24,753 nucleotides of DNA from a virus (taxonomy: Duplodnaviria; Heunggongvirae; Uroviricota; Caudoviricetes), in IMG/VR virus record IMGVR_UViG_2648501392_000012; one strand, given 5' to 3'. Of this stretch, positions 4,519-8,949 are shown one piece after another. The notes beneath the pieces are model-generated. The model saw only the letters and a list, made by a program, of their open reading frames with translations, was not told where the DNA came from and made no database searches. The stretch's first letter is position 1. Each line of letters begins with the position of its first letter. Made by a program: the position numbers and the translations under genes.

Positions 4519-4550
4519 GAAAACCCGCTGATGAGCGGGTTTTGTGCTTT
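4519..4550 (+). terminator. tR'-like rho-independent terminator downstream of PR'
   Basis: AAACCCGC-TGATGA-GCGGGTTT stem-loop followed by a T-rich tract. Confidence 0.6.
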
Positions 4551-4835: not shown

Positions 4836-5048
4836 TCATGAAAGGTAAACATTGGCAGCTGAAGGGCCACGCAGACCATTTATCCGGCAAAATTCCACGC
4901 GTAATCCGGTGGTAATTTCTTCTGCATCGCGGAGATTGAGCGCTGAAACATGAAGCTGGACATCGATACGACCATCGGATGGGGTGATAAGACCCTTGCC
5001 GCTTTTGCCGTCAAAGGTTTTGACAATTCCTGTCATTTTACGGGACAA
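4836..5048 (-). CDS. cspF: Cold-shock-protein family paralog CspF (70 aa)
   Basis: Protein [38 protein letters not shown]... is a CspA-family cold-shock domain; recognised as CspF. Confidence 0.9.
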
Positions 5049-5348
5049 AAAAATTCCTTAATACTGATAACTTGGCGCACTATACACACGTTCCTGAAGA
5101 AAGCTATAGTTTTTTGATGGGGTTGAAGATGGCTGGATGTCTAAAATAAACATTGCTTCATATGTTCAACTATGCGTTAATGATTGCGTCGGTTTGAAGA
5201 ACAGACGATATACGAAGTAGTTTACTAAAGCAGTTCTCATTTCAGGTGTTATTCACTTATTCCTTCTTTGAGTCTCTCCAATTAAGTACGAAGTCGTTTC
5301 TGTTATGCAAACCATTTATGCCGAAAGGCTCAAGTTAAGGAATGTAGA

Positions 5349-5564
5349 ATGTCAAATAAAATGACTGGTTTAGTAAAATGGTTTAACGCTGATAAAGGTT
5401 TCGGCTTTATTTCTCCTGTTGATGGTAGTAAAGATGTGTTTGTGCATTTTTCTGCGATTCAGAATGATAATTATCGAACCTTATTTGAAGGTCAAAAGGT
5501 TACCTTCTCTATAGAGAGTGGTGCTAAAGGTCCTGCAGCAGCAAATGTCATCATTACTGATTAA
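5349..5564 (+). CDS. cspB: Cold-shock protein CspB (71 aa)
   Basis: Protein [38 protein letters not shown]... with canonical RNP1/RNP2 motifs; divergent from cspF. Confidence 0.9.
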
Positions 5565-5846
5565 AATTCATCGCTCGTCTGTATACGATAACGAAGAAGG
5601 CTGATGCCTGAGTAGAGATACGGACAGAGTAGTGAATATTGGATCTCTTTAATAAAAAGTAAGGAGGTCCAATACATGAAACAATGGCTAGCATATTTGG
5701 CAAAATCTTAATCAGGAAAAGTATGCTAACCATTGTGGTGAAGTGCAGGTTTGCTGCATGAATAGTTTTACAGCAGAAGCTAACTGCTGGCATGGCAAAA
5801 CAAAGTGCGTAAGTGGATGACTCCCACAAAAAGCACCACAATCTCA

Positions 5847-5872
5847 AACCCGCTCAGGCGGGTTTTTTATTA
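5847..5872 (+). terminator. Rho-independent terminator about 280 nt downstream of cspB
   Basis: AACCCGC-TCAG-GCGGGTT followed by TTTTTTATTAT. Confidence 0.6.
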
Positions 5873-5927
5873 TCTGCTTTAAATATATTATTAAAATATA
5901 AAAAATACTTGTTACTAATAAAATCAA

Positions 5928-6098
5928 TCAGGCTACAGCTTTAAGATTTGTCTGGAATACTTTGTTGCAATGAGGGCAGATCAAAAGGGCACCTTTTTGT
6001 ACTCTTGAAAAACTGTGTTCTGACTCTTGGGTGCAGTTTGGGCAGGAACATTTAACGAGATAATTACGGCGTGATTTTGAGTTTTTACGTTCTGACAT
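5928..6098 (-). CDS. Small Cys4 zinc-ribbon protein (56 aa), possibly the Qin small protein YnfU
   Basis: MSERKNSKSRRNYLVKCSCPNCTQESEHSFSRVQKGALLICPHCNKVFQTNLKAVA; two CxxC pairs (CPNC...CPHC); AGGAAA 6 nt upstream of the internal ATG (the ORF track shows a longer 73-aa version). Confidence 0.5.
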   Translation of the reverse strand: MSERKNSKSRRNYLVKCSCPNCTQESEHSFSRVQKGALLICPHCNKVFQTNLKAVA

Positions 6099-7873: not shown

Positions 7874-8234
7874 GGTAATATTAAATCGGAACATTTACAT
7901 CGCGGAATGTAAAATTTGAATAAAAAGGACTCTTCCATGAGCCAAAATTCCTGAAATCTTAAGGGTAAGATAAAAGGTCTTAATCAGAATGACACGTTTT
8001 ATTAATAAATAAAGCTATTCTTTCATTGCTGTGTTTTTCTTTACAAAAGTAATCCTTGCTATGGGTGGTTAATCATGCGTTAATGGTGTTCTGGTTTGTT
8101 ACAAATTTATCTGAAGCAGTCATTGTTATAATTTTATTATTTGTACCTCTTGAGATTTCCTTGTTGGTTTTTCTCTCTGATATTTTTTTCGGACCATTCT
8201 GCCCAAGGGCTAATTTCTTCAAAAGGTAATAATT

Positions 8235-8447
8235 ATGTCTAATAAAATGACTGGTTTAGTGAAATGGTTTAACCCTGAAAAAGGTTTTGGTTTCATCACG
8301 CCGAAAGATGGCAGCAAAGATGTGTTTGTCCATTTCTCAGCAATTCAGAGCAACGATTTCAAAACATTAACTGAGAATCAGGAAGTTGAATTTGGTATTG
8401 AGAACGGACCTAAAGGTCCTGCCGCTGTTCATGTAGTGGCGCTTTGA
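8235..8447 (+). CDS. cspI: Cold-shock protein CspI (70 aa)
   Basis: [70 protein letters not shown]. Confidence 0.9.
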
Positions 8448-8535
8448 GGTAGACAATATTACAAACCATATTCACTTTAGATGCCCGTGTTGTCATGGTT
8501 CCCAGTATAGAACATCATCTTTTGATGTTTCTGAC

Positions 8536-8646
8536 ATGAATCCTTTCGGGGCAAAATGTATCTTTTGTAAATCAATGATGATTACATTTGATAATATTTC
8601 ACAATACTTAAATGCCAGCCGTCTGTCGTTGGATTTAAAAAAGTGA
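8536..8646 (+). CDS. Short reading frame (36 aa from ATG) that is the C-terminal half of a start-less Cys4 zinc-ribbon frame open from 8437
   Basis: Frame reads ...RCPCCHGSQYRTSSFDVSDMNPFGAKCIFCKSMMITFDNISQYLNASRLSLDLKK*; the first CxxC pair lies upstream of the only in-frame ATG; followed by a hairpin terminator. Confidence 0.3.
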   Translation: MNPFGAKCIFCKSMMITFDNISQYLNASRLSLDLKK

Positions 8647-8649
8647 AAA

Positions 8650-8677
8650 TGAAGGCTCCTTCGGGAGCTTTTTTGCT
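8650..8677 (+). terminator. Putative rho-independent terminator after the cspI / zinc-ribbon unit
   Basis: GGCTCC-TTCG-GGAGCT stem followed by TTTTTTG. Confidence 0.45.
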
Positions 8678-8718
8678 TGGTGTCTATTCGATGGATACTC
8701 ACATACTACGGTAACATC

Positions 8719-8949
8719 ATGAAAAAAATCATAGTTTTTTTTAACTCTGAACCAGCAGTGGTAGTGCCAGCGATGACTGGAGTTAACACCATCATGCGTG
8801 AATATCCAAATGGCGAAAAAACACACCTTACTGTAATGGCCGCAGGGTTTCCATCTCTGACCGGAGATCATAAAGTCATTTATGTAGCCGCGGATCGACA
8901 TGTTACTTCAGAAGAAATTCTGGAAGCAGCAATAAGGCTCTTGAGTTGA
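8719..8949 (+). CDS. Hypothetical 76-aa protein
   Basis: ORF MKKIIVFFNSEPAVVVPAMTGVNTIMREYPNGEKTHLTVMAAGFPSLTGDHKVIYVAADRHVTSEEILEAAIRLLS; weak ribosome-binding site; no recognised family. Confidence 0.35.
   Translation: MKKIIVFFNSEPAVVVPAMTGVNTIMREYPNGEKTHLTVMAAGFPSLTGDHKVIYVAADRHVTSEEILEAAIRLLS

What the first reader, a model, noticed from the sequence alone, without database searches (positions are those of the whole stretch)
5565..5872. About 280-nt structured 3' extension of cspB carrying a strong SD with a 10-codon micro-ORF, ending at a terminator
cspB stops at 5564 but the first convincing terminator is at 5847..5872. In between there is a near-consensus Shine-Dalgarno (TAAGGAGGT) 7 nt before an ATG that opens a 10-codon frame (MKQWLAYLAKS*), followed by further sequence with hairpin potential. 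This could be a 3'UTR-derived small RNA, a tiny peptide, or an unannotated regulatory element.
Basis: seen in the sequence. Interest (0 to 1): 0.4.

Follow-up and report, generated by a model that had tools for sequence, protein, structure and literature searches.

The report
Conserved structured RNA after cspB
The stretch after the cold-shock gene cspB in E. coli K-12 is not a tiny-peptide gene but a folded, non-coding RNA tail, whose core is an undescribed four-armed RNA fold that follows cspB-type genes across enterobacteria and probably controls the fate of the cold-shock message.

Summary
The window is the Qin prophage of E. coli K-12.

The peptide reading fails.
- The SD is the 3' arm of a 15-bp hairpin (-18.3 kcal/mol).
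- All six substitutions seen in the frame are nonsynonymous or nonsense.
- The SD-ATG unit is absent from all non-Qin lineages.
- Published Term-seq puts the dominant RNA 3' end at 5677/5679, inside the AUG.

What is conserved is RNA structure.
- A hairpin with a K-turn-like loop (5566-5637) follows the stop codon.
- A second hairpin (5681-5736) leads into a four-way junction (5732-5842).
- Loop AAGCUAA and junction AAAGUGCGUAAG are nearly invariant.

In 201 of 202 copies with enough upstream sequence, the junction lies 110-180 nt after a cspB-like gene, in Escherichia, Kluyvera, Kosakonia, Phytobacter, Pseudescherichia, Enterobacter, Superficieibacter, Raoultella, a phage-plasmid and phages. 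Compensatory changes support every helix, 1-2-nt indels exclude coding, and Rfam 15 has no match.

My best reading is a cis-acting 3'-UTR processing and stability module. The structure is well supported; the function is inferred.

The parts
5349..5564 (+). cspB coding sequence (context). The element is always attached to a gene of this class.
   Evidence: ORF list. RefSeq annotation of identical K-12 DNA. The Rfam cspA thermoregulator hit covers 5188-5580 only.
5566..5637 (+). HpA: a long hairpin directly after the stop codon. Its conserved core is 5577-5625. Its internal loop reads AC-GAA-GA-AGG (5591-5600) opposite CCU-GA-GU (5607-5613), which fits the K-turn consensus.
   Evidence: MFE fold. 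RNAalifold on 12 lineages predicts 14 pairs, 9 with compensatory double changes. The two GA dinucleotides are invariant in all 12 rows of alignment A6. The K-turn assignment is my reading of that pattern and is not structurally tested. HpA is absent from PHB10-type copies.
5637..5674 (+). HpSD: a 15-bp hairpin specific to the Qin-type E. coli lineage. Its 3' arm is the 'Shine-Dalgarno' UAAGGAGGU (5660-5668).
   Evidence: It folds at -18.3 kcal/mol, z = -7.5, with 0 of 200 shuffles as good. The natural variant GAGGTCC to GAGATCC turns a U.G into a U-A pair. It is absent in E. coli variant L066, Cyrano, PHB10, Kluyvera and the others.
5676..5711 (+). 11-codon frame MKQWLAYLAKS plus stop. Judged non-coding.
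   Evidence: Across 81 Qin-type copies, 6 distinct substitutions were seen. All are nonsynonymous or nonsense: L5P, K10I, S11T, A9V, S11P and W4stop. The frame is not conserved outside this group. I found no entry in the Stringer et al. sORF supplement (weak negative).
5677..5679 (+). Dominant in vivo RNA 3' ends, at K-12 1641226 and 1641224 on the minus strand. They lie in the 6-nt single-stranded linker 5675-5680 between HpSD and HpB.
   Evidence: Adams et al. 2021 (PMC7815308), Supplementary file 1. Read counts are 604,404 (LB OD 0.4), 1,233,565 (LB OD 2.0) and 2,464,295 (M63). The cspB 5'-UTR end scores 56,963.
5681..5736 (+). HpB: a hairpin with core 5689-5698 paired to about 5719-5728. 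Its outer 7 bp (ACAAUGG 5681-5687 with CCAUUGU 5730-5736) use the first 5 nt of the P1 5' arm. This is the alternative pairing 'ALT'.
   Evidence: MFE fold. Helix 1. ALT covaries: ACAAU/AUUGU in E. coli, ACAUC/GAUGU in Kluyvera and ACAAC/GUUGU in Superficieibacter. In register, 86.5% of cells pair, against 21-54% when slid.
5732..5842 (+). X: a four-way junction ('cloverleaf').
- P1: 5732-5740 with 5834-5842
- P2: 5743-5748 with 5754-5759
- P3: 5771-5776 with 5784-5789, loop AAGCUAA at 5777-5783
- P4: 5813-5816 with 5824-5827
- Near-invariant junction AAAGUGCGUAAG at 5802-5813
   Evidence: RNAalifold finds the same fold independently, as does the single-sequence MFE. Among 39 distinct sequences, 96.6% of cells pair against 22-54% when slid. 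Eight pairs have double changes, and the covariation score is 0.214 against 0.108, reached by 0 of 500 shuffles. The covariance-model hit in the window is 5730-5845, 126 bits, a single copy. The loop and junction stay conserved when homologues are collected with an anchor placed elsewhere.
5846..5872 (.). Intrinsic terminator hairpin plus U tract, apparently used from both sides.
   Evidence: Terminator scan and fold. A Term-seq 3' end of the convergent ynfU transcript lies at K-12 1641060(+), which is window 5843. No curated 3' end is listed in the cspB direction. The terminator is present after X in E. coli, Cyrano and Superficieibacter only.
5928..6098 (-). ynfU, a convergent zinc-ribbon small protein gene (context). 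It is a frequent but not obligatory neighbour of the element.
   Evidence: Annotation. Neighbourhoods in other genera.

Best explanation
**What it is.** The 308 nt between the cspB stop codon and the terminator are a non-coding, modular, highly structured 3' UTR. Its conserved core is an RNA family that Rfam does not hold and that travels with cspB-class cold-shock genes in Enterobacteriaceae. The core has two parts:
- a hairpin with a K-turn-like loop right after the stop codon (HpA);
- further down, a hairpin (HpB) leading into a four-way junction (X) with near-invariant loop and junction sequences.

The SD, ATG and 11-codon frame lie in a variable spacer between these modules. There the 'SD' is simply one arm of a lineage-specific 15-bp hairpin.

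**How I think it works.**
1. (Inferred) Transcripts from the cspB promoter run through the UTR towards the terminator at 5846-5872.
2. (The 3' end is shown; how it arises is inferred) The RNA is cut in the 6-nt single-stranded linker 5675-5680, or is degraded from the 3' side back to it.
3. (Inferred) The cspB message is left capped by HpA and HpSD, which block 3' exonucleases.
4. (Inferred) The HpB-X domain is the conserved cis determinant that sets whether and how fast this happens. It would act either as a binding platform for a protein or RNase, or as a temperature-sensitive fold. The basis for the second idea is that nucleotides 5732-5736 can pair either with the flank of HpB or with the 3' arm of P1, at nearly equal predicted energy.

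Overall, the structure and its linkage to csp genes are shown. The effect on mRNA fate is inferred.
For: **Identity and annotation**
- The window is K-12 Qin and the region is unannotated.
- Rfam finds only the cspA 5' thermoregulator at the gathering threshold. Only sub-threshold, terminator-driven hits appear at E <= 10. ARAGORN finds no tRNA.

**Fold**
- The whole tail has z = -6.6.

**Homologues**
- The 3' half recurs at 82% identity in phage-plasmid Cyrano and 75% in phage PHB10, each time after an otherwise divergent csp gene.
- Pattern and covariance-model searches add Kluyvera, Kosakonia, Phytobacter, Pseudescherichia, Enterobacter, Superficieibacter and Raoultella.
- Of 202 copies with enough upstream sequence, 201 have a csp C-terminus 110-180 nt upstream on the same strand. 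The one exception carries an IS3 insertion.

**Covariation**
- A1: 92.4% of cells paired, 11 pairs with double changes.
- A5: 39 distinct sequences, 96.6% paired, covariation score reached by 0 of 500 shuffles.
- RNAalifold predicts the same helices unaided.
- HpA: 9 of 14 pairs are compensatory.

**Strand**
- There are 51 G.U cells against 8 A.C cells, which points to the csp sense strand.

**Not coding**
- Indels of 1-2 nt separate lineages.
- The internal AUG at 5758 becomes ACG, AUA or CAC in other copies.

**In vivo 3' end**
- Term-seq places a strong 3' end at 5677/5679, 3-5 nt after HpSD.

**Alternative pairing**
- It covaries.
- The two conformers differ by 0.5 kcal/mol in K-12, and by 0-2.5 kcal/mol in most lineages.
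Against: - No experiment links the element to mRNA stability, processing or temperature.
- The Term-seq data are from 37 C only, when cspB is poorly expressed.
- Those data cannot tell cleavage from trimming or termination.
- The curated list holds no 3' end at the terminator in the cspB direction. Transcription through X in K-12 is therefore not demonstrated by the data I could read.
- Covariation comes from about five clades of fairly close relatives, so the number of independent events is small. No R-scape-type test was possible.
- The modules are separable. PHB10-type copies lack HpA, and E. coli variant L066 lacks HpSD and HpB.
- In Pseudescherichia, Enterobacter and Raoultella, X sits about 60 nt upstream of a ynfN-like gene with no terminator. 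That fits a leader role as well as a 3'-UTR role.
- Invariant junction sequences suggest a specific ligand or partner that a plain 'stability hairpin' model does not explain.
- Conformer energies are nearest-neighbour predictions only.
Confidence: 0.5

Rival explanations
1. The SD-ATG unit drives translation of an 11-residue peptide (or a regulatory micro-ORF) from the cspB 3' region.
For: - There is a perfect 9-nt SD with ideal 7-nt spacing to an ATG.
- The 11-codon length is kept in most Qin-type variants.
Against: - The SD is fully paired in a 15-bp, -18.3 kcal/mol hairpin.
- All 6 substitutions in the frame change or truncate the peptide, and none is synonymous. SD variants weaken the SD but keep or improve the pairing.
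- The unit is absent from L066, Cyrano, PHB10 and all other genera, while the flanking RNA structures persist.
- The main RNA 3' end lies within the AUG.
- Nothing was found at these coordinates in the Stringer et al. sORF supplement.
- The motif alone is within chance, with 7 of 100 shuffles reaching the observed count.
Confidence: 0.06
2. HpB-X plus the terminator (about 5680-5871, some 190 nt) is released by cleavage at 5677-5679. It then acts in trans as a 3'-UTR-derived small RNA, using AAGCUAA and/or AAAGUGCGUAAG as seed.
For: - A 3' end lies exactly in the linker upstream.
- In E. coli, Cyrano and Superficieibacter, a good terminator with a U6 tail follows.
- Two near-invariant single-stranded motifs exist.
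- A 5'-terminal hairpin would stabilise such a product.
Against: - There is no curated Term-seq 3' end at the terminator in the cspB direction in three conditions.
- The terminator is not conserved in the PHB10, Kluyvera, Kosakonia or Pseudescherichia lineages.
- The fold is far more elaborate than known Hfq-dependent sRNAs.
- No paper in the searchable library links cspB to RIL-seq partners.
Confidence: 0.2
3. X is a cis-regulatory leader (riboswitch-like or thermosensor) for the gene that follows it. It controls read-through or translation of ynfN-like cold-shock genes.
For: - In Pseudescherichia, two Enterobacter MAGs and Raoultella, a 75-aa ynfN-like gene starts about 60 nt after X on the same strand, with no terminator.
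- Mutually exclusive pairings with covariation exist.
- Junction nucleotides are invariant, as in ligand-binding RNAs.
Against: - In E. coli, Kluyvera, Superficieibacter, PHB10 and Kosakonia, the next gene is convergent (ynfU).
- X tracks the csp gene in 201 of 202 copies, not ynfN. The cspI-ynfQ-ynfR-ynfN cluster in this same window has no X.
- The alternative pairing does not touch a terminator or an RBS.
Confidence: 0.12
4. The conservation reflects a protein-coding gene on the minus strand (phage PhiR42_1 annotates a hypothetical CDS there), or merely recent horizontal transfer with no function.
For: - A 97-aa TTG-initiated ORF spans 5554-5847 on the minus strand.
- A CDS is annotated in PV340562.
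- Many copies are nearly identical prophage DNA.
Against: - Lineages differ by 1- and 2-nt indels inside X, which break any frame on either strand.
- G.U cells outnumber A.C cells 51 to 8, which fits an RNA on the plus strand.
- Compensatory double changes occur in all helices.
- The element is kept at 75-82% identity next to csp genes that are themselves only 66-82% identical in protein.
Confidence: 0.03

Closest known systems
cspA thermoregulator (Rfam RF01766), the 5'-UTR thermosensor of cspA-family mRNAs
   Same: It is a cis-acting structured RNA in the same mRNAs, and it works through alternative conformations. It is present upstream of cspB and cspI in this window.
   Different: That element covers the 5' UTR and coding start (5188-5580). 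The element here lies after the stop codon and has no sequence or structural similarity to it. It is present after cspB-type genes but not after cspI.
3'-UTR-derived small RNAs released by processing (the CpxQ, SroC, SdhX type). This comparison rests on my own knowledge.
   Same: The element lies at the 3' end of an mRNA and shares its terminator. An RNA end in a single-stranded linker could mark the release site.
   Different: The fold is much larger and branched. No 3' end at the terminator appears in curated Term-seq. The terminator is not conserved across lineages. Hfq dependence is unknown.
Protective 3'-terminal stem-loops of bacterial mRNAs, including ProQ-bound 3' ends such as cspE. 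This comparison rests on my own knowledge.
   Same: Stable hairpins (HpA, HpSD) sit just upstream of the observed 3' end of a csp message. The position fits arrest of 3' exonucleases.
   Different: Protection does not explain a four-way junction with invariant loop and junction sequences downstream of that end. Nor does it explain the K-turn-like loop.
tRNA-like cloverleaf structures
   Same: It is a four-way junction closed by a long helix. One arm has a 6-bp stem with a 7-nt loop.
   Different: ARAGORN finds nothing. The junction strands are 11 and 23 nt long, there is no T-loop or D-loop consensus, and there is no CCA end. The observed RNA end is 2 nt before HpB, not at P1.
Riboswitch aptamers built on a four-way junction with a K-turn (for example SAM-I). 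This comparison rests on my own knowledge.
   Same: It combines a multi-helix junction, invariant junction nucleotides, a K-turn-like motif nearby and an alternative pairing.
   Different: There is no Rfam match even at E <= 10. The element lies in a 3' UTR in E. coli. No expression platform is evident and no ligand is suggested.

Membership tests
Any Rfam 15 family | Covariance-model score at or above the family's gathering threshold | tested here: not met
   Only RF01766 (cspA thermoregulator) hits the window, at 5188-5580 and 8090-8474. In 5540-5930 at E <= 10, the best hits score 22 bits or less against gathering scores of 35-140. They sit on the terminator.
tRNA / tRNA-like | Cloverleaf with canonical arm sizes and conserved D- and T-loop nucleotides | tested here: not met
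   ARAGORN finds 0 genes in the window. The topology is a four-way junction, but the junction strands are 11 and 23 nt and the loops lack tRNA consensus.
Small protein gene (sORF) | Accessible ribosome-binding site | tested here: not met
   The SD at 5660-5668 is fully paired in a 15-bp hairpin at -18.3 kcal/mol, z = -7.5.
Small protein gene (sORF) | Purifying selection on the peptide and conservation in relatives | tested here: not met
   All 6 of 6 substitutions are nonsynonymous or nonsense. The unit is absent outside Qin-type E. coli.
Small protein gene (sORF) | Ribosome initiation signal in vivo | tested here: inconclusive
   The held supplement of Stringer et al. has no entry at these coordinates or with this peptide. 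Raw profiles could not be inspected.
3'-UTR-derived sRNA | Discrete RNA whose 3' end is the mRNA's terminator | tested here: not met
   Curated Term-seq at 37 C in three conditions lists no minus-strand end near K-12 1641031-36. It lists only the opposite-strand end at 1641060. Cold conditions were not available.
3'-UTR-derived sRNA | 5' end made by processing or an internal promoter | tested here: inconclusive
   The 3' ends at 5677/5679 in the linker are compatible with a cut. No plus-strand promoter-like site lies between 5111 and 6164. No 5'-end data could be retrieved.
3'-UTR-derived sRNA | Hfq or ProQ binding and trans targets | not testable with these tools
   This needs co-immunoprecipitation or RIL-seq data. 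None were found in the library.
K-turn motif (in HpA) | Canonical stem, 3-nt bulge, then tandem G.A / A.G pairs | tested here: met
   The pattern AC-GAA-GA-AGG opposite CCU-GA-GU lies at 5591-5613. Both GA dinucleotides are invariant in 12 of 12 lineages, while the bulge and the 3b/3n position vary. This is a sequence-pattern match only. The kinked geometry is not tested.
Intrinsic (Rho-independent) terminator | GC-rich hairpin followed by a U tract | tested here: met
   The stem at 5846-5865 has 8 pairs, 5 of them G-C, followed by TTTTTTATT. It folds at -12.8 kcal/mol. In vivo use is shown only for the convergent ynfU transcript.
Riboswitch / RNA switch | Conserved aptamer-like junction plus mutually exclusive pairings linked to an expression platform | tested here: inconclusive
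   The junction and invariant nucleotides are present. An alternative pairing with covariation and near-equal energy is present. No link to a terminator, an RBS or a ligand was found.

The most novel reading that the evidence does not exclude
HpA and HpB-X together form one compactly folded RNA. In this reading, a K-turn bends HpA onto the four-way junction. The fold works as a new class of sensor in the 3' UTR of cold-shock messages. It would switch between two pairings in response to temperature, or to a specific protein or ligand, and so direct site-specific cleavage and the lifetime of the csp mRNA. That would be a riboswitch- or thermosensor-like device acting from the 3' end rather than the 5' end.
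Probability: 0.15. Interest if true: 0.8.

Novelty: new member of a known kind. Interest (0 to 1): 0.55.

Why it matters
E. coli K-12 is the best-annotated bacterium, and the cold-shock response is a textbook case of post-transcriptional control. Yet that control has been studied almost entirely through the 5' UTRs of csp mRNAs.

A conserved, branched RNA fold in the 3' UTR of cspB-class genes, with a strong in vivo RNA end beside it, would add a second control point. It would also give a directly testable handle on an open question: how csp messages are stabilised in the cold and removed afterwards. Conserved structured 3'-UTR elements are rarely described in bacteria.

The work also removes a tempting but unsupported small-protein candidate.

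Tried and rejected
**Literature**
- Full-text searches returned nothing relevant. Queries combined cspB with ynfU, 3' UTR, Hfq, RIL-seq, mRNA stability, tRNA-like and structured-RNA terms.

**Supplement look-ups**
- TERMITe 2025: no hit.
- Cappable-seq 2016: no hit, though the files may be truncated.
- PIRT-seq: only a gene list.
- Weaver 2019 preprint, Dar & Sorek 2018 and Choe 2022: no supplements held.
- Thomason 2015: not held.
- As a result, no 5'-end data, cold-shock data or nuclease-mutant data could be read.

**Searches that added little**
- The search for related loci with a CspB alignment returned only near-identical Qin-type loci and added no diversity.
- Most genome-collection hits to the first pattern were chance matches in unrelated phyla. 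They were discarded after the covariance-model search.

**Ideas considered and dropped**
- RNase P cleavage at the base of HpB. The main 3' end at 5679 is 2 nt before the first base pair at 5681, not adjacent to it. An earlier notebook entry that said 'immediately 5'' was a one-base counting error.
- An RNase E consensus at the site. There is no U at +2.
- A second micro-ORF inside X (ATG at 5758, MNSFTAEANC...). Its start codon is lost or frameshifted in several lineages.
- Loop-loop pairing between the P3 and P4 loops. It is not conserved in E. coli.
- CsrA GGA motifs. They are not conserved.
Full report
**Where we are.** The window is 100% identical to the Qin cryptic prophage of E. coli K-12 MG1655, read on the reverse strand (K-12 coordinate = 1646903 - window coordinate). 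The local gene order is:
- quuQ/ydfT (+)
- ynfS (-)
- cspF (-, 4836-5048)
- cspB (+, 5349-5564)
- the region in question
- ynfU (-, 5928-6098)
- essQ (+)

Neither NC_000913.3 nor a PGAP re-annotation places any feature between cspB and ynfU. The 316-nt region is present at 80% coverage or more in 1,622 of 5,426 complete E. coli genomes.

**Checking the observation.** All the described features are present.
- The stop codon is at 5562-5564.
- TAAGGAGGT is at 5660-5668, with a 7-nt spacer.
- The ATG is at 5676-5678. The frame has 11 codons (MKQWLAYLAKS) and runs to TAA at 5709-5711.
- A GC-rich hairpin at 5846-5865 is followed by T6ATT.

The tail is strongly structured. It folds at -105.2 kcal/mol over 314 nt, with z = -6.6. 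The SD-ATG motif by itself is not beyond chance: there are two matches in the window against 0.37 expected, and 7 of 100 shuffles reach two.

**Anatomy in K-12.**
- HpA spans 5566-5637.
- HpSD spans 5637-5674. It is a 15-bp stem whose 3' arm is UAAGGAGGUCCAAUA. It folds at -18.3 kcal/mol with z = -7.5.
- A 6-nt linker, CAUGAA, spans 5675-5680.
- HpB spans 5681-5736.
- X is a four-way junction at 5732-5842.
  - P1: 5732-5740 with 5834-5842
  - P2: 5743-5748 with 5754-5759
  - P3: 5771-5776 with 5784-5789, loop AAGCUAA
  - P4: 5813-5816 with 5824-5827
- The terminator spans 5846-5872.

**The micro-ORF does not behave like a gene.**
- Its SD is fully base-paired.
- Among 81 Qin-type copies from viral, genome and metagenome collections, the frame carries six distinct substitutions. 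All are nonsynonymous or nonsense: L5P, K10I, S11T, A9V, S11P and W4stop.
- SD variants either improve the hairpin (GAGGTCC to GAGATCC turns U.G into U-A) or weaken the SD (TAAGGCGGT).
- An E. coli variant (L066/L068) has lost HpSD, the frame and HpB, but keeps HpA and X.
- Cyrano, PHB10, Kluyvera, Kosakonia and the other lineages have unrelated spacers with no SD-ATG.
- The held supplement of a combined ribosome-profiling sORF study lists nothing at these coordinates. This is weak evidence.

**In vivo RNA ends.** I used Supplementary file 1 of Adams et al. 2021 (eLife, PMC7815308), which reports Term-seq of MG1655 at 37 C.
- It lists strong 'orphan' 3' ends on the cspB strand.
- The end at 1641226 scores 604,404 in LB OD 0.4.
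- The end at 1641224 scores 1,233,565 in LB OD 2.0 and 2,464,295 in M63.
- These map to window 5677 and 5679, which are the U of the AUG and the A just after it.
- I checked the register of the printed 61-mers on sgrS.
- The 3' end in the cspB 5' UTR scores 56,963 on the same strand.
- Minus-strand counts in that table run on a higher scale than plus-strand counts, with a floor of about 23,469 against about 850. They should therefore be compared only within a strand.
- No curated end is listed at the terminator in the cspB direction.
- The opposite strand has one at 1641060, which is window 5843. The hairpin therefore terminates the convergent ynfU transcript.

The dominant RNA species at 37 C thus ends 3-5 nt after HpSD and cannot encode the peptide.

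**What is conserved.** BLAST found the 3' half of the region (about 5730-5872) in two other settings.
- It occurs at 82% identity in the phage-plasmid Cyrano and related plasmids. There it follows an unannotated csp gene.
- It occurs at 75% identity in phage PHB10, again after a csp gene.

A pattern built on two conserved motifs, and then a covariance model (R1), recovered more copies. These were in E. coli prophages, E. ruysiae, Kluyvera (three species), Kosakonia, Phytobacter, Pseudescherichia, Enterobacter, Superficieibacter and Raoultella. The window has a single copy at 5730-5845 (126 bits), and none follows cspI.

Of 214 occurrences in the fetched DNA, 202 have enough upstream sequence to judge. 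Of these, 201 have the C-terminus of a csp gene 110-180 nt upstream on the same strand. The exception carries an IS3 insertion at the 5' edge of X.

**Structure and covariation.**
- RNAalifold on 20 distinct sequences predicts HpB and P1-P4 without guidance.
- On that alignment, 92.4% of cells pair, against 21-56% for slid controls. Eleven pairs show changes on both sides.
- On 39 distinct sequences aligned to the model, 96.6% of cells pair. Eight pairs show double changes. The covariation score is 0.214 against 0.108 for shuffles, and 0 of 500 shuffles reach it. This alignment is fitted to the model, which favours the structure.
- G.U cells outnumber A.C cells 51 to 8, which fits an RNA on the csp sense strand.
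- Lineages differ by 1- and 2-nt indels within X, which excludes coding on either strand.

The first pattern forced AAGCTAA and AAGTGCGTAAG to be present. I therefore repeated the collection in metagenomes with an anchor on P2 only. Among 38 variants, the P3 loop and the J3/4 motif remain nearly invariant (exceptions: AAGCGAG and AAACUAA loops). The internal AUG at 5758 is replaced by ACG, AUA or CAC.

HpA is independently supported, with 9 of 14 predicted pairs carrying compensatory changes in 12 lineages. Its internal loop reads AC-GAW-GA-NGG opposite CCU-GA-GU, and both GA steps are invariant. From my knowledge of the K-turn consensus (Kt-7: C-GAA-GA-A opposite GA), this looks like a K-turn. 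That is a pattern match, not a structural test. PHB10-type copies lack HpA.

**An alternative pairing.** In the K-12 MFE, the outer part of HpB (ACAAUGG with CCAUUGU) uses the first five nucleotides of the P1 5' arm. The upstream flank covaries with that arm:
- ACAAU/AUUGU in E. coli;
- ACAUC/GAUGU in Kluyvera and Phytobacter;
- AUAUC/GAUGU, with a U.G, in Pseudescherichia, Enterobacter and Kosakonia;
- ACAAC/GUUGU in Superficieibacter;
- one A.A mismatch in the PHB10 type.

In register, 86.5% of cells pair in 31 contexts, against 21-54% when slid. The conformers with full P1 and with the extended HpB differ by 0.5 kcal/mol in K-12 at 37 C, and by 0-2.5 kcal/mol in most lineages. Either the two helices alternate, or P1 is shorter than drawn and stacks on HpB. 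Prediction alone cannot decide.

**Neighbourhood.** The module is a divergent cspF/H-like gene, then the cspB-like gene, then the element. One of two things follows:
- a convergent ynfU-like zinc-ribbon gene, in E. coli, Kluyvera, Superficieibacter, PHB10/Enterobacter and Kosakonia;
- a 75-aa ynfN-like gene on the same strand about 60 nt after X with no terminator, in Pseudescherichia, two Enterobacter MAGs and Raoultella.

A canonical terminator follows X only in E. coli, Cyrano and Superficieibacter. The element therefore belongs to the csp transcript, not to a particular downstream gene or terminator.

**Interpretation.** The evidence shows a new, conserved, non-coding RNA structure tied to cspB-class genes. 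The SD/ATG is a by-product of a lineage-specific hairpin.

For function, I commit to a cis-acting processing and stability module.
1. The message is cut in, or trimmed back to, the linker at 5675-5680.
2. It keeps HpA and HpSD as 3' protection.
3. The conserved HpB-X domain governs that step, perhaps in a temperature-dependent way or through a bound factor.

Only the structures, the linkage to csp genes and the 3' end are shown. The rest is inference.

The main rivals are a released trans-acting RNA and a leader for ynfN-like genes. The first is weakened by the lack of a 3' end at the terminator and by the non-conserved terminator. The second is contradicted by the convergent neighbours in most lineages.

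**Comparison with known families.**
- No Rfam family matches.
- The element is not a tRNA.
- It is distinct from the cspA 5' thermoregulator, which ends at 5580.
- It resembles processed 3'-UTR sRNAs, protective 3' hairpins and junction-type aptamers in single respects only.

**Limits.**
- Covariation rests on about five clades.
- All in vivo data are from 37 C.
- I could not retrieve 5'-end data, cold-shock data, nuclease-mutant data or Hfq/ProQ binding data.

Noticed in passing
window 4520-4547 (+ strand): A symmetric hairpin, AAAACCCGCTGATGAGCGGGTTTT, lies about 110-130 nt downstream of the quuQ/ydfT (Q antiterminator) stop. It carries a Term-seq 3' end at K-12 1642356(-), which is window 4547, in all three conditions (55,000-123,000 reads). 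This looks like the tR'-type terminator of a short late-leader RNA, analogous to lambda 6S RNA. On the other strand it would also end the cspF-ynfS transcript.
   Followed up: partly
window 8720-8949 (+ strand): ynfN is annotated as 51 aa, starting at an internal Met. The K-12 sequence has an intact frame from ATG 8720 (MKKIIVFFNSEP...). Homologues in Pseudescherichia, Enterobacter, Kosakonia, Raoultella and Kluyvera are 75 aa and start MIKVLVFFN. The true ynfN product is probably about 76 aa.
   Followed up: partly
window 8090-8474 and 8235-8949: cspI has a cspA-type 5' thermoregulator (Rfam, 115.7 bits). It is followed directly by ynfQ, ynfR and ynfN on the same strand, but has no copy of the cspB-type 3' element.
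   Followed up: yes
window 5843-5872, both strands: The cspB-side terminator is used in vivo by the convergent ynfU transcript (Term-seq 3' end at window 5843 on the minus strand). No end is listed for the cspB direction.
   Followed up: partly
L230:4490-4560 (Raoultella lignicola); L312 and L281 (metagenomes): Tandem octamer expansions, (GCCTGAAA)n or (GCATGAAA)n, lie inside junction J2/3 of the four-way junction. In L281 and L312 the conserved J3/4 motif is also decayed. These are probably degenerating copies.
   Followed up: no
L004:2631-2846 (phage Cyrano, OV696614): A complete cspB-like gene with a cspA-type 5' UTR is unannotated in the deposited record. It lies between hicB and dnaE. The conserved 3' element follows it and ends at a terminator abutting the dnaE stop.
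   Followed up: partly
L105:2920-2975; E. coli genomes H1-H5: Insertion sequences have landed in or at the edge of the region. IS3 lies exactly at the 5' boundary of the four-way junction in L105. IS1 or IS200 lie within the cspB-ynfU interval in several clinical E. coli genomes.
   Followed up: no
window 5758-5820 (+ strand): A second short frame starts at an ATG inside P2/J2-3 (MNSFTAEANCWHGKTKCVSG). In several genera it reads M(N/K)SLKAEANCL. The start codon is ACG, ATA or CAC in other copies, and the frame is shifted in Cyrano and one Enterobacter MAG, so it is not a conserved gene.
   Followed up: yes
window 5887-5915 (- strand): A promoter-like site (GTAACA-17-AATAAT, 9 of 12 matches) in the ynfU 3' region points into the terminator and antisense to the four-way junction. 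It is a consensus match only.
   Followed up: no
window 5269 (+ strand): The Term-seq 3' end at K-12 1641634(-) lies in the cspB 5' UTR. Adams et al. 2021 classify it as upstream of the ORF and Rho-dependent. This is already published and is not part of this finding.
   Followed up: yes
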